Source: a virus
Reading direction: 5' to 3' (one strand)
UHGV virus genome: UHGV-0334114
Length of the DNA stretch: 11,126 nucleotides
Within the stretch, counting starts at the first letter, position 1; the number at the start of each line of letters is the position of its first letter. This document shows, piece by piece, positions 1 to 11,126 of the stretch. A program made the translations under genes and the position numbers. The notes beneath the pieces are model-generated. The model was not told where the DNA came from. It saw only the letters and a program-made list of their open reading frames with translations, and ran no database searches.

Positions 1-276
1 GAATTTTTTGTTCAGGTCTGGGGAAATGGAGCCAACTTCGACAACACGATTTTGCGCCGTTCATACGAACGGCAGGGGATCCCCTGCCCATGGCGTTACT
101 ACAACGATCGCGATGTACGCACAATCGTTGAGCTGGGGAAAGCCATAGACTTCGATGCCAGAACGGCTATTCCATTCGAAGGTGAGCGCCATAATGCACT
201 TGATGACGCCCGTTACCAGGCAAAATACGTTTCAGTTATCTGGCAAAAACTGATCCCGAATCAGGCTGATTTTTAA
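1..276 (+). CDS. 3'-5' exonuclease, DnaQ-like DEDDh family (C-terminal part; gene starts upstream of window)
   Basis: Frame 1 is open from base 1 (EFFVQVWGNGANFD...), so the gene enters from upstream; the listed ORF start at 52 is an internal TTG. Contains GANFD and HNALDDARYQAKY motifs typical of Exo II/Exo III motifs of DEDDh exonucleases. Sits upstream of xis-int, where lambdoid phages carry recombination/exonuclease genes. Confidence 0.7.
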   Translation, partial: EFFVQVWGNGANFDNTILRRSYERQGIPCPWRYYNDRDVRTIVELGKAIDFDARTAIPFEGERHNALDDARYQAKYVSVIWQKLIPNQADF

Positions 277-340
277 TGTTCAACCCCGGTCGTTGCCCAC
301 CAGCTATAGTGGCGGCGACCATGATTAGCGAACGACGCTC

Positions 341-589
341 ATGGCAAGACTTATTCTGCTCACTGAGTGGGCAAAAGAGGAATTCAGTGAACCGGTCCCT
401 ACTCCGAGTACGTTAAGTAAATACGCTAAAGCCGGAATGATATTTCCTCTCCCCAAAAAAGTTGGAAGACGCTGGCGAGTGGATCCGCAAGCTCGCTTTG
501 TCGGAATGGTAAACAAGCCGGAGGTGATCGCCACAGATCACCCTGCTTTGAAGAGGATACTGGAAGATGGCGCGCCCGCGAAAATATAA
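341..589 (+). CDS. xis: excisionase / recombination directionality factor (Xis-like)
   Basis: 82-aa ORF immediately upstream of int, overlapping it by 23 bp (567-589) as xis/int do in lambda. The basic motif IFPLPKKVGRRWRV resembles lambda Xis (IFPPPVKDGREY, from memory). No obvious Shine-Dalgarno, so the start is uncertain. Confidence 0.6.
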   Translation: MARLILLTEWAKEEFSEPVPTPSTLSKYAKAGMIFPLPKKVGRRWRVDPQARFVGMVNKPEVIATDHPALKRILEDGAPAKI

Positions 590-1697
590 AACCGATGTTC
601 CGGGATTATCTCCGTATTTTGACAAAAGAAATAACAAAGTTTACTGGCGTTACAGGCATCCCATAACAGGCAAAAATCACGGTCTCGGCAGTATTGACCA
701 GAAACTGGCAGAAACTATTGCAGCAGAAGCGAACAGCCGTCTTGCCCGGCAGCAAATGGAACAAATGCTCAGTCTGCAGGAGAAAATTATTAGTGATACC
801 GGCGGTTCATCAACCGTTACCATTTTTCTGAATAATTACAGAAAAATTCAACAGGAAAGATATGAAAACGGCGAGATCAAACTCAACACGCTGAAACAGA
901 AAGCGGCCCCTCTCAGGGTATTTGATGAACGTTTTGGCACCAGACCGTTAGATGCCATAACCGTAAAAGATGTGGTATCAGTACTGGAAGAGTACAAGGC
1001 CAGAGGACATAACAGAATGGGACAAATTTTCAGGAAAGTACTGATCGATGTTTTCCGGGAAGCTCAGCAAACGGGCGATGTCCCGCCAGGCTTTAACCCT
1101 GCAGAATCGGCAAAAAAACCGCAGGTGCGGATATCAAGACAGCGACTGACTTTTGATGAGTGGATGATGATTTATAACGCAGCGGAAAAGGATGGTTACT
1201 TTTTACAGCGCGGTATGCTGCTGGCACTGATGACAGGCCAGCGCCTTTCAGATATTTGCAAAATGCAATTTTCGGATATCCGGGATGGTTATCTTCATGT
1301 CGAACAGCAAAAAACAGGAACCCGGATTGCCATCCCTCTGGCTCTGCGTTGCGATAAATTAAATCTCACCCTGGATGATGTGGTGTCATCCTGCCGCGAT
1401 TGCGTTCTTAGTCCGTGGCTATTGCACCACCATCACGCGAAAGGGACAGCTAAGCGCGGCGGGATGGTTAAGCCAGCAACATTAACCGTTGCATTTAAAA
1501 AAGCCCGGGATTCTGTGGATTACAACTGGCGTGCTAATGGCACCCCACCCTCTTTCCATGAGCAGAGATCTTTATCAGAGCGATTGTTCAGAGAGCAGGG
1601 GGTTGATACCAAAATTTTGCTAGGCCATTCGAATCAAAAAATGACCGATATTTACAACGACGCACGCGGTAAGGAATGGAAAAAACTGGTCATTTGA
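567..1697 (+). CDS. int: tyrosine site-specific integrase, lambda Int family
   Basis: 376 aa. The C-terminal catalytic domain aligns by eye to lambda Int: TGQRLSD (Arg), EQQKTG (Lys), FHEQRSLSERL (His/Arg), LLGHSNQKMTDIY (His and Tyr nucleophile). AGAGGA Shine-Dalgarno 9 nt upstream of the ATG at 567. N-terminal arm-binding region is diverged from lambda Int. Confidence 0.95.
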   Translation: MARPRKYKTDVPGLSPYFDKRNNKVYWRYRHPITGKNHGLGSIDQKLAETIAAEANSRLARQQMEQMLSLQEKIISDTGGSSTVTIFLNNYRKIQQERYENGEIKLNTLKQKAAPLRVFDERFGTRPLDAITVKDVVSVLEEYKARGHNRMGQIFRKVLIDVFREAQQTGDVPPGFNPAESAKKPQVRISRQRLTFDEWMMIYNAAEKDGYFLQRGMLLALMTGQRLSDICKMQFSDIRDGYLHVEQQKTGTRIAIPLALRCDKLNLTLDDVVSSCRDCVLSPWLLHHHHAKGTAKRGGMVKPATLTVAFKKARDSVDYNWRANGTPPSFHEQRSLSERLFREQGVDTKILLGHSNQKMTDIYNDARGKEWKKLVI

Positions 1698-1708
1698 TGA
1701 CCAGTTTT
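1680..1708. terminator. bidirectional intrinsic terminator candidate (12-bp perfect inverted repeat overlapping the int stop codon)
   Basis: AAAACTGGTCAT (1682-1693) and ATGACCAGTTTT (1697-1708) are perfect inverted repeats around a 3-nt loop. The stem is flanked by A6 (1680-1685) and T4 (1705-1708), giving a U4 tail on the + transcript (int) and a U6 tail on the - transcript (ompW-like segment). Confidence 0.5.
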
Positions 1709-1738
1709 GCAGAGGGGTTTTGCAGAGGTTTTGCAGAG
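1705..1738 (+). repeat. three direct repeats of TTTTGCAGAG; candidate integrase arm-type binding sites (P' arm)
   Basis: TTTTGCAGAG occurs at 1705-1714, 1718-1727 and 1729-1738, immediately 3' of int. A fourth near-copy AGTTTTGCAGAAGG lies at 1979-1992 on the other side of the proposed core. Placement mirrors lambda P'1-P'3 versus P-arm sites. Confidence 0.45.
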
Positions 1739-1742
1739 AAAA

Positions 1743-1868
1743 TTAAAAACGATATCCTGCGGAGAACATAAACACCCACGGATCCAGTCGTACCGAGTCT
1801 TTTACGGTAGTAACACCAGATTTGTACTTAGCCGTGGTATCGATATCCATGTACCAGACCGGTAGGTT
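1743..1868 (-). pseudogene. ompW: phage-borne 3'-terminal segment of ompW (41 codons plus stop); probable attP core and replacement 3' end of the integration target gene
   Basis: The - strand frame reads NLPVWYMDIDTTAKYKSGVTTVKDSVRLDPWVFMFSAGYRF then stop, preceded by an in-frame TGA at 1869-1871. It matches the OmpW C-terminus as I recall it (...VWYMDIDTTANYKLGGAQQHDSVRLDPWVFMFSAGYRF). No OmpW-like coding continues upstream in any frame, so this is a fragment, not a gene. Confidence 0.6.
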
Positions 1869-2170
1869 TCAAAAAACACAATAACCAATTGTATTTGAAG
1901 CAAAAAACAAGACTTTGAGATGTTTTTTTGTACCTTTTTTTATGTTTTTAACTGTCTGATTTTATTGAAATCTTTTTTAGTTTTGCAGAAGGAATTTTTT
2001 ACTTGATTGTAACTTTTTCGTTTTTTTGGGGCTAATTGACGCGCAATGCTGGGCGGGGAGCGCACAGCCAAAAAAACCGAAATTGACCGCTAATTACTGC
2101 CAATCATCATCGCTCTGATTGAGCGTAAATCATTCAGGTTTTTCAGTTCTTCCTTCTGCTCTCGCTGACG

Positions 2171-2341
2171 TCAATAAATCCCATCATTGCGATCAACCTC
2201 ATCCTTAACCATTGATGCGAGCAGTTCTTCCAGTTTCTGCGCTGACAGCTTTACCTGGTGATCTTCAGCATCTTCCCGGGCTATTGTGGTTCGCGCAGTG
2301 GCTGATTTTGCTGACATCACCACAGGGGGCAGACGGACCAT
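2171..2341 (-). CDS. hypothetical small protein (56 aa), sole ORF of the b-region equivalent
   Basis: ATG at 2341-2339 is preceded by GGAGG about 10 nt upstream. Product is MVRLPPVVMSAKSATARTTIAREDAEDHQVKLSAQKLEELLASMVKDEVDRNDGIY, predicted helical and acidic at the C-terminus. The listed 93-aa version starts at a TTG 4 bp after the tfa stop and has an odd hydrophobic N-terminus. No family recognised. Confidence 0.3.
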   Translation of the reverse strand: MVRLPPVVMSAKSATARTTIAREDAEDHQVKLSAQKLEELLASMVKDEVDRNDGIY

Positions 2342-2455
2342 TGAACCATGGCCTCCGGAACAAATAAGGGCAAAAATAACAACCACTATCGAAAGCTCAC
2401 AAACTAACCGCAGCACGTTCCTGCATACGACGTGTCTGCGGCATAATCCCAATGA

Positions 2456-3040
2456 TTACTCCCTGACAGGGTTCGTAGGCCACTCAATATCAGGTGCAGT
2501 TGATGTATCAACACGGTTCAGCAACACCCGATACTTTTTCCAGGCTTCCAGCAATGAGGTTTCTTCCTCCGTTGCAATTTCCAGATCTGCAGCATCCTGA
2601 AGCGGCGCAATATGCTCACTGGCTACCTGCATCAGGTTGTTTTTTGTTTCTTCCGCCTCCCGGATCCGGAACAGTTTTTCTGCTTCCGTATCCTTCACCC
2701 AGGCTGTGCCGTTCCACTTCTGAAACTCCCCTTCCGGCGATAACCAGGTAACATTTTCCGGTAACGGACCGAGTTCAGAAATAAATAACTCGTCCCCTGA
2801 CGCTACGTCATAAACCGTTTTCCCCCGATGGTCTTCAACGAGATGCCACGATGCCTCATCACTGTTGAAAACAGCCACAAAGCCAGCAGGAATATCTGGT
2901 GGTGCAATATCGGTACTGTTTGCTGGCAGACCTGTATGAGGCGGAATATATGCGTCACCTTCACCAATAAATTCATTAGTTCCGGCCAGCAGATTATAAA
3001 TTTTTATGGTCCGTGCTTGTTCACTCATTCTGAATGCCAT
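2456..3040 (-). CDS. tfa: tail fibre assembly protein (lambda Tfa-like)
   Basis: 194 aa, the same length as lambda Tfa and near-identical to it as I recall ([50 protein letters not shown]...). Its ATG overlaps the stf stop (TAATG). Confidence 0.9.
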
Positions 3041-6000
3041 TATGCAAGCCTCACAATATAGTTAAATGCGATGTTTTTGACGGTGTTTTCCGCGTTACCC
3101 GCAGCGTTAACGGTGATGGTGTGTCCATGTGAACCAATCGCAACGGAGTGCGTATGCGCACCAATACCTACAGTATGTGCATGTGCGCCAGAACTTGCTG
3201 CAGTACCAGACAGCGAGTGGGTATGAGCACCTGCTGACTGTGTCTGAATACGTTGATAATACGATCTATAGGAAGAAGTCTCCGGGCTTACTTGATACTG
3301 TGAATTCTGGACATAAGTGAACCCACCGCCATCATAAAATGCTAACGCAGAACCGCCGCCTCCTGGCCAACGAATACCATTACCATGAGTATGAACACCG
3401 GCAGACCCCGTAGAGCCACTCAGACTGTGCGTATGCGCCCCGGTGTTATTCGTGGATTTAGTGCCGTAATCAAACGACGATGTGGTTTTCGTCCCCAAAT
3501 CCGTACTGGATGCGCTGGCGCTGTGGGTGTGCGATTTTATGCCGTCCTGTTCCTGAGACAATACGGCCCGGCCACTGGCGGGTTTGCCCTTAATCGTCCA
3601 GCCACGCATATCAGGGATCACGCCTGACGGATAAGCCGCTGCAAGTTTCGGGTAGGCAGATTTGTTAAAAGTCTGCCCCTGCATCAGGGCATAACCAGAC
3701 GGAACGGTATCTGATGGCCACGGGATTGGTGCGCCAACTGGGTAGCTTTCTGGTGGAAGATTTTTCGAGGTATAAACTTCTGCCCAGTCTTCCTCAAAAC
3801 CATAACCGTCTCTTGAAGAACGGTAGAACAGACCACGATTTCTGTAATGCGCCTTCATCTGCAGGGTCCGGCAACTTCCGACTCCGGTATAGAAGTTAAC
3901 CAGAATATAGCTGTCGCCAGAGCGGGCGACATTGTAAGCGCCTGATTCGGCATTCCAGGGAACGGCTCCATTCGAATCCGCATAAGCCCCCGTCGAACGT
4001 CGGGCAAATGCACCAATATTTTCCGGCGTGAGGTTAATATCCGCCGAGCCATCAAACTTAACACCGTTAATTTTTGGGGCTGCCGCAAGTTTCGTCGCGG
4101 TATCGGCGTTCCCCTTCAGTGCCCCGGTGATCCCATCAGTAACAGACAACGGACCTGAAATAGTCCCTCCAGTCGTTGGCAGCGCTCCAATATCTGATGG
4201 TGTAGGTTTCTGATGTGAGCTATACATCGTATAAACAACACCACCGGTAACGCTGGAAGGCTTACTCGCTGAATATGTTGGCGAGGTATAAATAGAAACT
4301 GACGCATTTGCAGTACAATCCCAATGGATATTTACACTCGTCGCATAATTGCCAATCTCAACGTAAATATCATATGTATCGCCGGATGTGTTGATCCAGG
4401 CGAAATTCGTTAATCCGACGGCTGTACGCTTCCACAAAGCCCCGGTAATTCCTTTGGGGTTTCCATTGCCTGCTCGTAGAACCAGTTCTGAAATGCCTGC
4501 CTGATGTGGGGAACCGACGTTGTAACCAGCGCCACCAATCAATGCGATGTAAACGATGGAACTCGCTTGTGGCATGGTAACCGTTGCCAGTTTGAACCAC
4601 CCAGCCCCGCCAGAGAAAGAGATCGTTACTGAATTTAAAGTGCCAATATCTTTCGGTGTTAATGTTATATCCGCAGTCAGTGCTTTCCCGTTAACTTTTC
4701 GGTTAGATGGTACCCTGCCATTCGCATTGTCATTCGCTGCTTTAACTGCCTTCGGTGTCGCGGCAAGCGTTTCAGATGTGATGTTGGTCGCACTGCTGAG
4801 CTGTACTATCCCCTTTTTCGTCGTACTTGCATCCTCAAGCGCCACGGCGGATGCAATATCCTCTGCCCGTTTTGCCGCTGTCTCGGCGCGCGTTGCCGCG
4901 GATTCCGCCGTACTTTTGCTCTGTGCTGCCGCCGTCGCACTGCCAGCTGCCTCTGTCGCCTTCGCGGATGCTGTCGTGGCGCTGCCCTTCGCTGCTGACG
5001 CCTGTCTGGTCGCCTCATCTTTTGAAGCAGACGCCGATGATGCCGATGACGCCGCCGAACTGGCGGACGATGCGGCAGCCGTTTTTGAGGATTCTGCGCT
5101 GGTCTCCGACGCTTTCGCGTTCGTCTCCGATGTCTTCGCTGCGGAAGCAGACCTCGCTGCTGCACTGGCCTGTTCAGTGGCTTCGCCAGCCTTCGTTGTG
5201 GCTGTTGAAGCGGACGATGCGGCGCTTTCTGCCGATTTTCCGGCGGCGCTAGCACTGGCTGAGGCCTGCCCGGCACTTGTTGACGCTGCACTGGCAGACG
5301 ACGCAGCCGCTGTTTTTGAGCCTGCTGCTGCGGAGGCACTCTGTGCTGCTGCCGTTTCAGAGGACTTAGCGTTTGTCTCAGACGTCTTTGCCGCCTTCGC
5401 GGAATTTCCTGCCGCCGTTGCCGAGGAAGCGGCATTACTGGCGCTCGAGGCTGCGCTCGTTTCTGATAATTTTGCCGCCTCTTTTGAAGCCGACGCATCT
5501 CTGGCTGAGGTGGCTGCTTCTGACGCTTTCGTGGTCGCGGTGGATGCAGAAGTGGCAGCTGATTGTTGTGACGCTGCCGCATTCGTTTCTGACGTTTTCG
5601 CCGCACCGGCACTGGTGGCCGCCGCGCTTTTTGAGGACTCTGCAGCGGCAGCACTTTTTGATGCTTCAGTGGCCTTTGCTGATGCCGTTCCTGCGCTGGA
5701 AGACGCAGACTGAGCCGACGAAGCGGCCTGTCCGGCTGACGTGCTGGCTGCTCGTGCTGAGCCTGCAGCATCAGTCGCACGGGTTGCCGCCTCACGGGCT
5801 GATGTGCTGGCATCGCTGGCTGATTTCTTCGCGGCTGCCGTGTTCTGTGCCACCGCGGACGCGTTACGCGCCACCTCTTCCACCATCAGTTCAAAGCGGC
5901 GCAGTGCCTCAGGACGGGCATCATCCTCCGTCATGGCACCGAGAAAATCATTCAGCGTACCGGGTCGGGAATCTTCATACACGGTGATGGTCCCGGCATG

Positions 6001-6210
6001 TGACGGCGGGAATCCTTCCACCAACAGAATAACGCTGTACTGACCGTACTCAACGTCCATGCTGTAACGCCCGGCTTCATCCGGATTTTCTGAGGCCAGC
6101 GTGTTCACCACCACCGTGGTGCTGTTACGTTTTGCTTTCAGCTGGATTGTGCAGTTCTGTACCGGTTTTCCTGTGCCGTCTTTCAGTACACCTGAAATCT
6201 TTACTGCCAT
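3040..6210 (-). CDS. stf: side tail fibre protein (Stf; lambda Stf / Rac StfR-like, mosaic)
   Basis: Preferred start is the ATG at 6210 ([26 protein letters not shown]..., as in lambda Stf), with GGGGTGA just upstream; the listed ORF starts at a GTG at 6216. Has a long Ala/Ser/Thr-rich repeat tract, repeated GAHTHSLSG/HxH motifs, and a conserved C-terminus [22 protein letters not shown]. Confidence 0.9.
4820..5860 (-). repeat. in-frame low-complexity Ala/Ser/Thr-rich repeat tract inside stf
   Basis: Reiterated peptide units (AKTSETNA three times, STATTKA.EAT twice, SAASSAS...), with matching nucleotide-level reiteration. This composition generates the long spurious ORFs in other frames (4556-5713 +, 4806-5813 -, 5373-5987 +). 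Confidence 0.7.
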
Positions 6211-6220
6211 ATTCACCCCA

Positions 6221-6248
6221 CAAAAAAGCCCGCCTGAACCGGCGGGCT
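6221..6248 (-). terminator. rho-independent terminator downstream of lom
   Basis: On the - transcript: AGCCCGCC-GGUUCA-GGCGGGCU (8-bp GC-rich stem, 6-nt loop) followed by UUUUUUG. Lies about 27 bp after the lom stop and just upstream of the stf ribosome-binding site. Confidence 0.7.
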
Positions 6249-6274
6249 GTCATAACACTGTGTTACCTGGCTAA

Positions 6275-6874
6275 TCAGAATTTATAACCGACACCAACGA
6301 TGAAACTGTTGGTACGCCAGTCACCGCTGCCGGAGCCTTCATAAGCGACATCAACGGCCACGGATTCTGTCGGGTTAAACTGCACGCCAGCCCCCCACGC
6401 CAGAGACGTGTTGCTGTGGCGATCGTCATCACTTCCGGTCAGCACATCGTGCGTTTTCCCCGTATTGTCGGTCACCTGCAGATAATCCCCGGAGAAAGTC
6501 GACACACGGCTGTAAGCCACACCCGCCATCGCATACGCGCTGAACCATTCATTCACGCGCACAGACGGCCCCGCCATCACGCTGAACCAGCGGTTACGCA
6601 CGGAATCTTCATGCCAGCGGGTATCGCTGTAATGCGTTTTTTGCTCATCTTCAGCGTTGGCATAACTGAATGACGTAATCAGCCCCAGCGTGTCCGTAAA
6701 CTCATAACGGTATTTCACGTTAATCCCGTTCAGATTATCGCTGCCGGGAGCGTTCGTACGGGCATGAAGATACCCTGCGCTCAGTGTGGCCTGCTGCTCA
6801 GACGCCCATGCAGGCGCACCGGATACGGCCAGACAGATGGCTGCGGACAAAATGGCTGCACAAACTTTACGCAT
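6275..6874 (-). CDS. lom: outer-membrane protein Lom (Ail/Lom/PagC family beta-barrel), moron
   Basis: 199 aa with an N-terminal signal peptide ([24 protein letters not shown]). The C-terminus [26 protein letters not shown] matches lambda Lom. GAGG Shine-Dalgarno upstream. Sits between J and stf as in lambda. Confidence 0.9.
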
Positions 6875-6898
6875 AATTACCTCTCGCTTTTCTGCAAT

Positions 6899-6922
6899 AA
6901 AAAAGGCACCATTTCTGGTGCC
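6899..6922 (-). terminator. rho-independent terminator candidate between J and lom
   Basis: On the - transcript: GGCACC-AGAAAU-GGUGCC (6-bp stem) followed by UUUUUU. Lies about 20 bp downstream of the J stop. The stem is short. Confidence 0.5.
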
Positions 6923-6941
6923 CGTATCTGGGTTATAAAAT

Positions 6942-9900
6942 TCAGCTAATCGTGATGCCTGTAGTGGCTTTCTTCATCACCACAACCAGCAAATCGCTGA
7001 TACTTGCTGTGGGATACCAGTTATTTACCAGCCATGCTGACACCGAAAACTCCAGTGTCATGTGACCGTGACCGGCAGGCATATCAATAACGCCACTGTA
7101 AATCAGCGTATTATCCAGCGCGGTACGGTTATAAATTTCAGCACCGTTTTTCCGCACTATCAGACGGCATGAGGAGTAAATATCAGTATGCTCTTTCTCA
7201 TGTTTAGCGCCGCTGAATGCCACCGCCGGAATAACAATCTGCCGGTCAAACGGCTGATCGTCATAAACCCTGACGGTAATGGTTCCTGATGGCCACCGCT
7301 CCGGTGCACGGGAGTCCCGGGGGAAAGCTTTGCCCACTGTTTTAACGAGATCGCCTTCAATCTGGTTCGCGGACAATTTTCCCAGAACCCGACAGTTCTC
7401 GTTAATCGTGACGTTGTTGAGCGTCCCGGAGTTCGCATTCACGTTACCGCTGATATCGGCATTTTTCGCCGTCAGCCGCCCGTCCGGTGTCAGGGAAAAT
7501 GCCGGAGGATTACCGCCGCTGGTAATGGTGGGGGCCGTCAGGCGTTTCAGGAACACTTCATTCATGAATATCTGATCGCCCTGACCAACAAACATCGGCT
7601 TTGTGTTGCCATTCGCAGGATTAATCATCGCAATCCTGTCTGCTGCCAGCAGCACCTGACTCTGCATGCCGTCAGGGGTGTTCTCAATACCGGCACCGAT
7701 ACCCGCAATATAAAGGCGTCCGTCCTGCATCTGCTGCAGCTTCACTGCCCACATGCTGTTCAGGTTATTATTTGTATCAACCTGAACCTTCTGTATCTGC
7801 TGGATCGCTGCACTCTGGTCTTCCAGTTTCTTATTGACGGTCTGTGTTATTTCATTGCTGACATCCGTTATGGACGTCCTGATTTCAGTCAGGTCAGGCG
7901 CAAGCTGACCGTTATCAATCTGCGTCCACAGCTCCTGAGCCAGATGGGTTTTCCCTATCTCGCCTTTGAAAAAATCCAGATAGCCTGATGCATCATCACT
8001 CGGCTGACCGACAGCCTCCACGAATGCCGATTTGCCAACGGTGTTCACACTGCGAACGTAAAAATAATAATCATGGCCCGGTTTGATATTGATACTGGCG
8101 GCTATCCAGTACAGTGCCGTACCAAGATAACGCGCGCTGGTTTCAACCTGCCTGATATCCGCAATCCGTTTTTCCGAGAACCAGAACTCAAACTGTACCG
8201 TCGGATCATAAACCGCAAGATGCGGCGTGGCGGTTATCTGAAAATAGCCCGGCGTCAGCTCAATCCGCGACGGTGCTGCCGGTGCGGCAATCCGGAATGA
8301 TACCGACGCCGGATCACCCTGCTGCCCCCAGGCATTTACCGCCCTGACTGTCAGCCTGTAGTTCCCCAGCGCCAGCTGCCTGAAGCGGTATGTGGTTTCC
8401 GTCGTCCGGGCCGTGCTGACCAGCCGCTCACTGCCGTCATCCGCTGTTACGGTCAGACGGAGCAGGAAGCTCACGCCCTTCACCACCTTCGGCGTGTCCC
8501 AGCAGGCCAGCACCTGATATTCCCCGCTGTCTGCGGTGACTTCGGCAGTCAGGTGCTGCACCGCTGGCGGCGTGACACCATTCACCGTGCCGCTCTGGTC
8601 GCCGTCAAAGTGCGCCCCGTTATCCACGATGGCTTCTTTTTCCGGTACATGCTGCACGGCGGTGATGGCATACGTGCCGTCGTCGTTCTCACGGATACTC
8701 ACGCAGCGGAACAGGCGCTGGCGCAGCGTCGGCAGCTTCAGCCCCCACACGCTGTATCCGGCAACGCCGTCAGGAACACGGCTCACTTTTACCTTCACGC
8801 CGTCGGTGACGGACTGGACCTCCACGCTGACCGGATTGCCACTTCCGTCAACCAGGCTTATCAGCGTGGTACCGGAGGATGGCAGCGTGATTTCACGGTC
8901 GAGCGTCAGCGTCCGGGTCTGGCTGTTCACCGCCAGCACGCGCCCGCCGATGCTGATACCCGCATAGTCATCATCGCAGATTTCAATGACATCCCCCGGT
9001 ACATGGCGAAGCCCTTCCGCACCCACGCTGAAGTCCACGGTCTGCGTTTCCAGCAGTTCCGTTTTAATCAGCCACAGCCCGGCGCGGTGTGCCTGCCCCC
9101 GGCTGGTACAGCCAAAGGCATCCATCTTCGTGACGTTACGACCGTAACGGAGAATGGCCTGCGTATCTTCAACAAGCTCTGTCGCCGTCTCCCAGCCGTT
9201 ATCCGGGTCAATCCAGTTCACCTCAACGGCATTATGGCGGTCCTTCAGGGCGCTGAAGCTGTAGCGGAACGGCGCGCCATCATCCGGCATCACCACATTA
9301 CTGCGGTTATAGGTCCACACCTTATCCGACGGTCGGTCCTGCACGAACGTCAGCGTCTGCCCGTTCCATACCGGCATACAGCGCATCGCCGAGCAGAAAT
9401 CACTGAGAACATCCCACGCCTTACGCTGTGTGGTCAGCCAGGCATTACAGGTGATGCGCGGCTCCGTGCCACCAAAGCCATCCGGCACCGACTGGTCGCA
9501 ATTCTGGCCGATGACATACAGCGCCCATTTGTCCACATCCGCCGCACCGAGACGCTTCCCCATGCCGTAGCGCGGATGGGTCAGCATATCCCACAGACAC
9601 CAGGCCATGTTGTTGCTGTATGCCGGTTTAAACGTCCCGTCCCAGATACCGTTGTATTGCCGCGTCTGCGGGTTATAGTTCGACGGCACCTGCAGAATGC
9701 GCCCGCGAAGATGATAATTACGGCTCACCTGCTGGCTGCCGAACTGCTCCGAATCCACCTGCACGCCGACCAGTGCCGTGTTCGGGTAGCCCTGTTTCAC
9801 ATCGATGATTTCGGTGTATGACGACCAGAGCGTTTTGTTCTGCAGCTGGTCTGTGGTGCTGTCCGGCGTCATCCTGCGCATCCGTATATTGAACGGGCGC

Positions 9901-10421
9901 GGCGGCAGGTTACCCACCACCACCGAGGCCAGATACTGCGAGGTGGTTTTGCCCTTAATGGTGATGTCTTTTTCCGTCACCCAGCCACCATTACGTTGTA
10001 TCTGAACCAGCAGGCGAACTTCCGACGGATTCCTGTCCCCCTTTGAGGTGGTTTCCACCAGTGCCTGCACACCGAAGGTAAAACGCAGTCGGTCAATGTT
10101 TGCCGACGTGATGGTCCGGGTGATCGGCGTGTCGTATTTCACTTCCGTACCCAGTACCGTCTCGGAACCTGATGATTCAAATCCCTCCGGCGGTGTCTGT
10201 TCCTGCTCACCTGCCCGGAACACCACCGTGACACCAGAGATGTTAGTATTCCCCTCACTGTCCAGCACCGGTGTACTGTTCAGCAGCACGCTTTTTAATC
10301 CATCCACCGGACCTTCAACCGGCCCTTCGCTGATGGCATCGATCACACTCAGCAGCTGCGTGGACTTCAGGTTGTCCCTCGCTTCGCGCGGGGTATGCCC
10401 CTTACTGCTTCCTTTACCCAT
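6942..10421 (-). CDS. J: tail tip attachment / host specificity protein J
   Basis: 1159 aa. The N-terminus [34 protein letters not shown] and most of the protein match lambda J as I recall it. GAGGA Shine-Dalgarno directly upstream of the ATG. A central segment and the C-terminal ~150 aa (receptor-binding region) are clearly diverged from lambda J. Confidence 0.95.
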
Positions 10422-10444
10422 TCCTCACACTCCATAAACAACAA

Positions 10445-10463
10445 AGCCGCCCAAAAGGCGGCT
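10445..10463 (-). terminator. possible intrinsic terminator downstream of the lipoprotein moron
   Basis: On the - transcript: AGCCGCC-UUUUG-GGCGGCU (7-bp stem) followed by the U-rich UUGUUGUUUAUGG. Lies 25 bp after the lipoprotein stop and about 25 bp before the J start. The U tract is interrupted. Confidence 0.4.
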
Positions 10464-10487
10464 CATGAGTTACGGCAGGATTAACTA

Positions 10488-10826
10488 TTATTTACATGCA
10501 TTAACACTATCAGCAAAAATTTTTGGCGTTAATGCTGGTACACGTTCATAAAGAGTAAAACTACTGCCATTTCCTGCTTTTTTGATATCAAGCACAACAT
10601 CATATCCCCCCATAGCCTGTGGAACTAAAAGGCTTACCCCATTCTCAATAGGAAGGGATGTTATAGGTGTTCCATTACCAGCCCATTGTCTGGATATGCA
10701 GCCTGACAATTCATCAATATTTTTTAATGAATTACCTTCCATTACAGGTTTTCCGGATTTTACGTAATCCAAAGACTTACATCCTGTTAAGGCAATAATC
10801 GTGCAGAATAAAATCGTTTTGTTCAT
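10488..10826 (-). CDS. small secreted lipoprotein of unknown function (moron inserted between tail genes I and J)
   Basis: Preferred start is the ATG at 10826, giving MNKTILFCTIIALTGC..., a classic lipoprotein signal peptide with lipobox LTGC; the listed ORF starts 4 codons earlier at a TTG. Mature part is about 95 aa with two further Cys. The gene and its flanks are markedly AT-rich compared with I and J. No good Shine-Dalgarno seen. Confidence 0.7.
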   Translation of the reverse strand: MNKTILFCTIIALTGCKSLDYVKSGKPVMEGNSLKNIDELSGCISRQWAGNGTPITSLPIENGVSLLVPQAMGGYDVVLDIKKAGNGSSFTLYERVPALTPKIFADSVNACK

Positions 10827-10898
10827 ATAGCTAACCAATAGAATAATTATCAGTGTTCGATATAAATATTAAATCAGTTAGAACATGAGTAAATAATA

Positions 10899-11126
10899 TT
10901 ACCGCCCAATTACCACAACCTGACCACCATCCCCTTCATCTGCCGTGCTGATCTCCTGAGATGCCACACGTGACCCCACGCGCATTTCACCGTACAGAAC
11001 AGGCAGGACATTGCCCTGGGCAACCATGTTATCCAGTGAGGAGAAATAGGTGTTCTGTTTGCCGTTATCCGTTGTCTGTGTACGGGGAGTTCTGGCTTTC
11101 GGTGCCAGCATCTGCGCCACACCACC
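10899..11126 (-). CDS. I: tail assembly protein I (C-terminal part; gene starts beyond window end)
   Basis: The frame is open to the window edge (GGVAQMLAPKARTPRTQTTDNGKQNTYFSSLDNMVAQGNVLPVLYGEMRVGSRVASQEISTADEGDGGQVVVIGR then stop), matching the C-terminus of lambda gpI as I recall it. The listed start at 11120 is an internal GTG. Confidence 0.85.
   Translation of the reverse strand, partial: GGVAQMLAPKARTPRTQTTDNGKQNTYFSSLDNMVAQGNVLPVLYGEMRVGSRVASQEISTADEGDGGQVVVIGR

What the first reader, a model, noticed from the sequence alone, without database searches (positions are those of the whole stretch)
1680..2040. attP carrying an OmpW C-terminal coding segment: integration target appears to be the 3' end of ompW, and the window is in phage-map (non-integrated) arrangement
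The - strand at 1743-1868 encodes 41 residues matching the OmpW C-terminus as I recall it, with a divergent middle (AKYKSGVTTVK versus ANYKLGGAQQH) and a stop codon where the host gene would continue upstream. That is the signature of a phage that integrates into the 3' end of a gene and supplies a replacement 3' end. The segment is flanked by direct repeats TTTTGCAGAG (three copies at 1705-1738, one at 1981-1990) that are good candidates for Int arm-type sites. Because the integrase and the tail-fibre genes converge on this intact site with no host DNA between them, the sequence looks like a virion, circular or excised genome rather than an integrated prophage.
Basis: partly seen in the sequence, partly recalled or inferred. 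Interest (0 to 1): 0.6.

Follow-up and report, generated by a model that had tools for sequence, protein, structure and literature searches.

The report
Known phage attachment site inside ompW
This is the attachment site of a common lambda-like E. coli phage that inserts into the outer-membrane gene ompW and brings its own replacement gene end; the site was already mapped experimentally in 2021, so the finding is correct but ordinary.

Summary
Window 1743-1868 (- strand) encodes an OmpW C-terminus: 32/41 identical to K-12 OmpW (E 2e-22), Pfam OmpW E 2.4e-13, with a TGA just upstream. TTTTGCAGAG occurs three times exactly at 1705-1738 and once as TTTTGCAGAA at 1981-1990.

The attP reading is supported. 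Aligning the window with empty K-12 ompW and both prophage-host junctions of E. coli SCU-125 confines the crossover to a 23-bp block, window 1834-1856. Integration rebuilds an intact 212-aa OmpW with 7 substitutions. The integrase is a lambda-Int homologue with an arm-binding domain. The repeat marks the outer edge of the P arm in four diverged P arms.

None of this is new. The integrase is 100% identical to IntE of the published "PPompW" prophages (Nakamura et al. 2021, PMC8112680). That paper sequenced this attP from excised circles, and GenBank annotates the 121-bp duplication (= window 1741-1861).

The "virion or excised genome" inference is not supported. The same int-ompW'-tail junction sits in 17 complete E. 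coli chromosomes. In SCU-125, the closest match at 99.4%, it is the internal junction of two prophages in tandem between yciE and ompW.

Small additions here: the 23-bp crossover block, the candidate arm and IHF sites, and the mosaic origin of the phage's ompW piece.

The parts
341..589 (+). excisionase (xis), overlapping the start of int
   Evidence: Pfam Exc PF07825, E 1.3e-7. The corresponding gene is annotated as excisionase in SCU-125, EC4115 and AZ 190 (WP_000113189.1), and as xisE in LC567818.
567..1697 (+). lambda-type tyrosine integrase with an N-terminal arm-binding domain
   Evidence: Pfam Arm-DNA-bind_1 PF09003 E 7e-22 and Phage_integrase PF00589 E 1.3e-16. Lambda Int structure 5j0n matches at E 8.5e-56 over residues 14-375. 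100% identical to IntE of PPompW_14040 and to the SCU-125 Int.
1682..1708 (.). perfect 12-bp inverted repeat (AAAACTGGTCAT/ATGACCAGTTTT) over the int stop codon; candidate two-way terminator for int and, in a lysogen, for the rebuilt ompW
   Evidence: the repeat finder I3. RNA fold -14.9 kcal/mol on the + strand (z -3.0) and -17 kcal/mol on the - strand (z -5.3). The function is inferred; the simple terminator scan did not call it.
1705..1738 (+). three tandem TTTTGCAGAG repeats (1705-1714, 1718-1727, 1729-1738): candidate arm-type Int sites, P'1-P'3 equivalents
   Evidence: Exact copies. They lie directly after the int stop, as P'1-P'3 do in lambda (my recollection of the lambda attP sequence). 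Providencia phage PSTCR8lys, whose Int is 51% identical, has three tandem TTTTGG(G/T)G repeats in the same place. Binding is not tested.
1743..1833 (-). phage-borne replacement for the last 29 codons of ompW plus the stop (part of the P' arm)
   Evidence: In lysogens it is fused in frame to the host ompW 5' part.
1834..1856 (-). common core: 23-bp block TGGTACATGGATATCGATACCAC (- strand) shared by attP, attB and both prophage junctions; the strand exchange must occur here
   Evidence: Four-way alignments A1 and A2. The block is 23/23 identical in Escherichia and Shigella and 17-23/23 in other Enterobacteriaceae. It encodes the invariant WYMDIDT motif.
1857..1992 (+). P arm, AT-rich, ending at the fourth repeat copy
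   Evidence: Alignments A3 and A4 of four diverged P arms. For the SCU-125 prophage A and P-EibA arms, similarity to the window stops right after GTTTTGCAGA(A/G)G.
1949..1961 (-). IHF-consensus match AATCAGACAGTTA in a conserved block of the P arm
   Evidence: The only WATCARNNNNTTR match in the att region. There are 4 in the whole window against 0.62 expected. The conserved block is visible. Binding is not tested.
1981..1990 (+). TTTTGCAGAA: candidate outer arm-type site of the P arm (P1 equivalent)
   Evidence: Starts 125 nt after the core here and 127 nt after it in SCU-125 prophage A. It is conserved in P-EibA and SC407 while the surrounding sequence diverges.
1741..1861 (.). the 121-bp stretch annotated in GenBank as 'duplication due to insertion of PPompW'
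   Evidence: repeat_region of LC567818, placed on the window by the offset of the int stop codon. The 121-bp attL/R is described in PMC8112680.

Best explanation
Window ~1705-1992 is the attP of a lambda-like 'PPompW' phage.

Shown:
- The integrase (567-1697) is a lambda-Int-type enzyme with both an arm-binding and a catalytic domain.
- It exchanges strands within a 23-bp block (1834-1856) that is identical to the ompW codons for WYMDIDT(T).
- On the int side of that block the phage carries its own copy of the remaining 29 codons and stop of ompW (1743-1833). Insertion therefore joins the host ompW 5' part to a phage 3' end and keeps a full-length 212-aa OmpW. That protein has 7 substitutions in the stretch between the last two conserved segments.
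- The displaced host 3' end is left as a fragment beside yciE.
- The window shows the unrecombined P-O-P' order.

Inferred:
- The three tandem TTTTGCAGAG repeats next to the int stop (P' arm), and the single copy about 125 bp from the core at the far edge of the P arm, are the arm-type sites bound by the Int N-terminal domain.
- The IHF-consensus site at 1949-1961 bends the P arm.
- The hairpin at 1682-1708 terminates int transcripts and, in the lysogen, ompW transcripts.

The P-O-P' order arises both in a free or circular phage genome and at the internal junction of two prophages integrated in tandem at ompW. The window alone cannot say which.
For: OmpW similarity.

Crossover mapping: attB (K-12), attL-type (SCU-125 ompW side, AZ 190), attR-type (FDAARGOS_1282, SCU-125 yciE side) and P-O-P' (window, SCU-125 internal junction) switch partners only at the 23-bp block.

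Intact chimeric OmpW.

Int and Xis domains.

Identity with published PPompW: Int 100%. 300 bp of int 3' end plus att are 99.7% identical to eleven LC5678xx records annotated 'duplication due to insertion of PPompW'. PMC8112680 reports the 121-bp att and attP sequenced from mitomycin-induced excised circles.

Arm sites.

IHF match. Hairpin.

Prevalence: the attL-type junction is in 1715 of 5426 complete E. coli genomes.
Against: No binding data exist for the repeats, the IHF site or the core-type sites, and no terminator assay. The simple terminator scan did not call the hairpin. The published att is given as 121 bp, not 23 bp; the narrower block is my inference from junction sequences, not from cleavage mapping. 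The attP PCR in the paper was done on O145:H28 prophages, not on this exact sequence. The source of the window could not be traced.
Confidence: 0.93

Rival explanations
1. The window comes from a bacterial chromosome and shows the internal junction of two PPompW prophages integrated in tandem at ompW. The int end of one prophage abuts the tail end of the next. On this reading it is not a free phage genome. This concerns only where the sequence came from; the site is an attP-type sequence either way.
For: The best match to the whole window is such a junction in SCU-125 (99.4%, 100% coverage). The outer borders of that array are yciE and ompW. 17 complete chromosomes carry the junction, EC4115 among them. 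Tandem PPompW arrays are published. Only one record in the phage collection has the junction, at 92.5% over the window.
Against: No complete genome matches the window exactly. SCU-125 carries an extra methyltransferase module. Many single prophages (for example B2.3 and AR_0017, 99.1% over 1741-11126) have the window-type tail arm at the yciE side, and B2.3 has a second match place to the 1600-2200 query, not inspected. If that place is the int-side junction, such a prophage would give this junction on excision. Excised circles of PPompW do occur.
Confidence: 0.5
2. The window comes from a free, circular or excised phage genome.
For: The P-O-P' order with an intact int, xis and tail module. 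PPompW prophages excise and circularise on induction. A record named Escherichia phage 204576 carries the junction.
Against: The arrangement does not discriminate, because tandem arrays produce the same junction. The PPompWs studied in PMC8112680 were not packaged.
Confidence: 0.45
3. The ompW fragment is not the phage's own attP. It would be either a decoy attB carried in a prophage for other phages to integrate into (the 'attB-in-PP_3' idea of PMC8112680), or host DNA picked up by faulty excision.
For: PMC8112680 notes the same 121-bp ompW-like sequence next to the integrase genes of prophages that sit at other loci, and calls it a potential attB.
Against: Here the fragment lies directly beside the cognate Int, with the repeat motif on both sides. 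Lysogen junctions show recombination at exactly this block. The fragment is not a recent E. coli pick-up: its middle 47 bp are at most 53% identical to any same-length allele in the 80 species examined.
Confidence: 0.03

Closest known systems
PPompW prophages of STEC/EPEC (Nakamura et al. 2021, PLoS Pathog, PMC8112680; GenBank LC567818-LC567841)
   Same: Identical integrase protein. The int 3' end and att are 99.7% identical. Same 121-bp ompW duplication, same lambda-like layout, and the same occurrence as tandem arrays.
   Different: The window lacks the 21-bp secondary attB (attB-in-PP_1) described for the O145/O157 PPompWs. Its tail-fibre region is of a different type; the PPompW records match only the first 300 bases of the 1560-2160 query. 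The paper treats the whole 121 bp as att and does not describe arm-type sites in the passages I read.
Bacteriophage lambda attP / Int / Xis / IHF system
   Same: Int homologue over its full length, including the arm-binding domain, with xis upstream and overlapping int. int converges on attP with the tail genes on the other side. Three tandem repeats lie next to the int stop, one sits at the far edge of the P arm, and an IHF-consensus site lies between that one and the core. The lambda layout is from my own knowledge of its sequence.
   Different: The target is inside a coding gene rather than the gal-bio intergenic attB. The P' arm is lengthened by about 90 bp of replacement coding sequence. 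The repeat motif (TTTTGCAGAG) is unrelated to lambda's CAGTCACTAT-type sites. The identity block is 23 bp against 15 bp in lambda.
Phage 21 and e14 integration into icd; more generally elements that insert into the 3' end of a gene or tRNA and carry a replacement 3' end (established knowledge, Campbell and colleagues)
   Same: attP carries a diverged copy of the target gene's 3' end, so the gene stays intact after insertion and a displaced 3' fragment is left at the other prophage end.
   Different: Different gene, and here the replacement changes the protein. Seven residues differ in a stretch that is hypervariable among Enterobacteriaceae. I did not compare the sequences with phage 21 or e14.

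Membership tests
PPompW prophage group (PMC8112680) | Integrase more than 90% identical, over more than 90% of its length, to the PPompW integrase (the paper's search criterion) | tested here: met
   376/376 identical to IntE of PPompW_14040, LC567818. This is not the paper's reference gene EC112648_1574 itself but a PPompW record from the same accession series.
PPompW prophage group (PMC8112680) | 121-bp ompW-derived att sequence next to int | tested here: met
   The GenBank repeat_region maps to window 1741-1861. 99.7% identity over 300 bp.
PPompW prophage group (PMC8112680) | Integrated in ompW, between yciE and ompW | tested here: met
   Shown for relatives with the same site: FDAARGOS_1282, SCU-125, AZ 190, SC407. 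The window itself contains no host flank.
Lambda-type attP (heterobivalent tyrosine integrase system) | Tyrosine recombinase with a separate N-terminal arm-binding domain | tested here: met
   PF09003 E 7e-22, PF00589 E 1.3e-16. Lambda Int structures match at E 1e-55.
Lambda-type attP (heterobivalent tyrosine integrase system) | Short core shared by attP and attB at which the partners switch | tested here: met
   23-bp block at 1834-1856, from four-way alignments.
Lambda-type attP (heterobivalent tyrosine integrase system) | Arm-type sites, different from the core sequence, on both arms and bound by the Int N-terminal domain | tested here: inconclusive
   The motif is present three times plus once. 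Its position is conserved across diverged P arms and a parallel arrangement exists in a 51%-identical system. Protein binding cannot be tested with these tools.
Lambda-type attP (heterobivalent tyrosine integrase system) | Accessory bending-protein sites (IHF) and an excisionase | tested here: inconclusive
   One IHF-consensus match in a conserved P-arm block. A Xis gene is present. No Xis sites were identified.
Elements that replace the 3' end of their target gene (phage 21/e14-icd type) | Integration regenerates a full-length open reading frame from the host 5' part and the element's 3' part | tested here: met
   212-aa OmpW in SCU-125, annotated as a full-length ompW gene there and in AZ 190.

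The most novel reading that the evidence does not exclude
The phage-borne ompW end may be a small conversion module rather than a neutral repair patch. On this reading every lysogen swaps 7 of 11 residues (ANYKLGGAQQH to AKYKSGVTTVK) at what should be the tip of the last surface loop of OmpW. By standard 8-strand barrel topology this is the loop between strands 7 and 8; that assignment rests on my own knowledge and was not modelled here. The variant was not found as a native allele in 80 Enterobacteriaceae species representatives. Because OmpW is the colicin S4 receptor (PMC2649078) and a phage receptor in Serratia (PMC10132071), the swap could change sensitivity to colicins or phages in the roughly one third of sequenced E. 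coli that carry it.
Probability: 0.12. Interest if true: 0.5.

Novelty: already known. Interest (0 to 1): 0.15.

Why it matters
It matters little as a discovery. The site, its target and its tandem arrays are published and annotated in GenBank. It is useful for annotation: the int-ompW'-tail junction should be read as a PPompW attP-type junction and not as proof of a free phage. About a third of complete E. coli genomes carry the corresponding int-ompW junction. The refinements made here give ready targets for a footprinting or mutagenesis study, but they do not change the picture. These are the 23-bp crossover block, the candidate arm-type, IHF and terminator elements, and the mosaic origin of the replacement segment. 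The only open biological question is whether the altered OmpW loop has a phenotype.

Tried and rejected
- mEp460_ev081 looked like a phage relative with the same int region, but its integrase gene is different (1281 nt) and there is no ompW piece beside it.
- IMG/VR contig L008 carries the P'-core sequence, but what follows is unrelated to the P arm, so it was not used for arm comparisons.
- AZ 190 was fetched as a possible diverged P' arm. The P' arm is identical; the 90% identity comes from a divergent host ompW allele.
- Rfam found nothing credible in 1500-2500.
- The simple promoter/terminator scan found nothing beyond chance in the att region.
- The 21-bp attB-in-PP_1 of the paper is absent from the window.
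- A literature search for the repeat motif returned only unrelated primer sequences.
- The colicin S4 paper holds no loop-level data on OmpW.
- Attempts to trace the window's source failed. A window-specific gapped pattern gave no hit in viral or metagenome contigs. The exact tail-fibre protein is only on two short ENA contigs that stop before the att site.
- A second, degenerate repeat copy about 56 nt from the core (window ~1912-1921, TTTGAGATG; TTTTGCGATG in SCU-125 prophage A) was considered as a P2 equivalent. It is too weak to claim.
- I looked by eye for inverted core-type sites (TGGTA...TACCA, 12 bp apart). This stays speculation.

Full report
**1. The observation**

The - strand of 1743-1868 translates to NLPVWYMDIDTTAKYKSGVTTVKDSVRLDPWVFMFSAGYRF followed by a stop.
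- It is 32/41 identical to residues 172-212 of K-12 OmpW, E 2e-22.
- It matches the C-terminal end of Pfam OmpW, profile positions 155-195 of 195, E 2.4e-13.
- An in-frame TGA lies directly upstream at 1869-1871.
- TTTTGCAGAG is exact at 1705-1714, 1718-1727 and 1729-1738. The copy at 1981-1990 is TTTTGCAGAA.
- The integrase (567-1697, +) and the tail module converge on the site. The module comprises tfa 2456-3040, stf 3040-6216, lom 6275-6874 and J 6942-10421, all on the - strand.

One correction: DNA homology to ompW starts at 1856, so the first three residues (NLP) are arm sequence.

**2. What it is**

I compared four kinds of sequence:
- the empty site in K-12 (L003);
- junctions where ompW's 5' part meets the phage int side (SCU-125 L005; AZ 190 L096);
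- junctions where yciE and the old ompW 3' end meet the phage tail side (FDAARGOS_1282 L002; SCU-125 L004);
- the window itself.

In alignments A1, A2 and A5 the partners switch at one place only. This is the 23-bp block TGGTACATGGATATCGATACCAC (- strand), window 1834-1856. To one side of the block, the tail-side junctions follow the window and the int-side junctions follow K-12. To the other side the pattern is reversed. The window is therefore P-O-P', an attP-type site, and ompW is the target.

The lysogen's ompW is a full 212-codon gene. It differs from the K-12 protein in that stretch by seven residues. The displaced host 3' end is annotated as an OmpW fragment beside yciE.

**3. The recombinase**

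The integrase carries:
- the lambda Int arm-binding domain (PF09003, E 7e-22);
- the catalytic domain (PF00589, E 1.3e-16);
- a weak central-domain match, below Pfam's cut-off.

It aligns with lambda Int structures over residues 14-375, E 8.5e-56. An excisionase-family gene (341-589, PF07825) overlaps its start. An enzyme of this type needs arm-type sites in attP; this is established knowledge of the lambda system.

**4. The repeats as arm-type sites (inference)**

- Three exact tandem copies lie between the int stop and the ompW stop. This is where lambda has P'1-P'3, as I recall the lambda attP sequence.
- The fourth copy starts 125 nt after the core. In prophage A of SCU-125, which has a clearly diverged P arm, TTTTGCAGAG starts 127 nt after the core.
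- In alignments of four P-arm types (window, SCU-125 A, P-EibA, SC407) the motif is conserved. For the two most diverged arms, similarity to the window ends right after it. That is what one expects of the outer boundary of a functional attP.
- Providencia phage PSTCR8lys has an Int 51% identical. It carries three tandem repeats, TTTTGGGGAAG twice and TTTTGGTGGGG once, directly after its int stop. The architecture is therefore shared while the motif differs.
- A single IHF-consensus match (AATCAGACAGTTA, 1949-1961, - strand) lies in a conserved P-arm block.
- A perfect 12-bp inverted repeat at 1682-1708 spans the int stop and folds well on both strands. It could terminate int transcripts and, in a lysogen, ompW transcripts. 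The native ompW terminator hairpin stays with the displaced fragment.

None of these protein-DNA contacts is tested.

**5. Already known**

- The phage collection holds eleven records (LC567818-LC567841) named PPompW, or Stx2a phages embedded in PPompW. They match the int 3' end and att at 99.7% and are annotated 'duplication due to insertion of PPompW'.
- That repeat_region maps to window 1741-1861.
- The window's Int is 376/376 identical to IntE of PPompW_14040.
- The paper behind these records (Nakamura et al. 2021, PMC8112680) states that lambda-like prophages are integrated in ompW with a 121-bp attL/R.
- It also states that the attP-flanking regions were amplified and sequenced from excised, circularised genomes after mitomycin C treatment.
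- It further reports that four O157:H7 strains carry two PPompWs in tandem.
- The site is very common. 1715 of 5426 complete E. coli genomes have the int-P'-ompW junction at 80% coverage or more.

**6. The 'non-integrated' inference**

- The same int-ompW'-tail junction covers 100% of a 601-bp query in 17 complete chromosomes.
- The closest match to the whole window is SCU-125, at 99.4% and 100% coverage.
- I walked that locus outwards: trpA-yciF-yciE, host-type ompW fragment, prophage A up to its int, phage-type ompW fragment (the window's junction), prophage B up to an identical int, full ompW, yciC.
- EC4115 shows the same internal junction with phage genes on both sides.
- Tandem integration therefore produces exactly this arrangement inside a chromosome.
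- Conversely, prophages such as that of B2.3 match 1741-11126 at 99.1% on the tail side. B2.3 also has a second match place to the 1600-2200 query, which I did not inspect. If that place is the int-side junction, such a prophage would recreate the window's junction on excision.
- I could not find the source. No complete genome or phage record is identical. A window-specific pattern found nothing in viral or metagenome contigs. The exact tail-fibre protein is only on two short contigs.

The origin stays open, at about even odds.

**7. Origin of the replacement segment**

- Across 80 Enterobacteriaceae species representatives the flanking peptides VWYMDIDT and RLDPWVFMFSAGYRF are almost invariant, while the stretch between them is hypervariable. 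The phage thus targets the conserved edge of a variable region.
- At the DNA level the phage copy is a mosaic. It is 23/23 and 42-43/44 identical to Escherichia at its two ends. Its middle 47 bp are at most 53% identical to any allele of the same length.
- The best overall match is 101/117, to the long-loop allele of Citrobacter meridianamericanus, with a 15-nt gap.
- Synonymous and non-synonymous sites are both heavily changed in the middle. This points to an old, foreign allele and gives no sign of recent selection.
- Whether the resulting loop change has a phenotype is unknown. OmpW is the colicin S4 receptor and a phage receptor in Serratia, which is the basis for the low-probability novel reading.

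**8. Verdict**

Both restate a published, database-annotated system. The claim that the arrangement indicates a free phage genome does not follow. New here are only the narrowing of the crossover to 23 bp, the candidate arm-type, IHF and terminator elements supported by comparison, and the mosaic origin of the ompW piece.

Noticed in passing
L004 (SCU-125, NZ_CP051700.1) ~32570-42726: In prophage A the terminase large-subunit gene is split into two partial genes. Between them lies about 10 kb carrying its own tyrosine integrase, a RepA-type helicase, SSB, an Icd-like protein and a second prohead-protease/major-capsid fusion gene. It looks like a satellite or second element inserted into terL.
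   Followed up: no
window 2406-2621; L001 20807-21022 and 21857-22072: This 216-bp stretch, at the 3' end of the tail-fibre assembly gene, occurs once in the window but twice in SCU-125. There it flanks a SAM-methyltransferase module that the window lacks. This is consistent with gain or loss of the module by recombination between the repeats.
   Followed up: partly
window 2171-2452 (-): A 93-codon ORF between attP and tfa has no Pfam match. The corresponding stretch in related genomes is annotated as a truncated DUF4376 pseudogene with an internal stop. It is probably a decayed tail-fibre-region remnant.
   Followed up: partly
window 1682-1708: A perfect 12-bp inverted repeat spans the int stop codon and shares its last four T with the first TTTTGCAGAG copy. 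It folds at -14.9 and -17 kcal/mol on the two strands. It is a possible two-way terminator that stays with int after integration.
   Followed up: partly
L005 29369-29458 and L096 2289-2378 (between ompW and yciC); L004 11487-11819: A YkgJ-family fragment is annotated upstream of ompW in SCU-125 and AZ 190, and a full ykgJ-like gene sits near the tail end of SCU-125 prophage A. PMC8112680 describes a ykgJ/ecpE-derived secondary attB in such prophages. I did not examine the link.
   Followed up: no
L088 (JAATUR010000067.1, labelled E. coli SCPM-O-B-8794): The ompW 3' end of this record has the long-loop peptide VKYKSNGAVLPAGHYSDN, identical in that stretch to Escherichia albertii (L059) and unlike the other E. 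coli representatives. This could be a divergent lineage or a naming issue.
   Followed up: no
L008 (IMGVR_UViG_643886067_000001) 5390 onwards: This contig matches the window at 99.8% from int through the core (window 1-1861). It then continues into GC-rich sequence unrelated to any P arm. This may be a rearranged or truncated PPompW.
   Followed up: no
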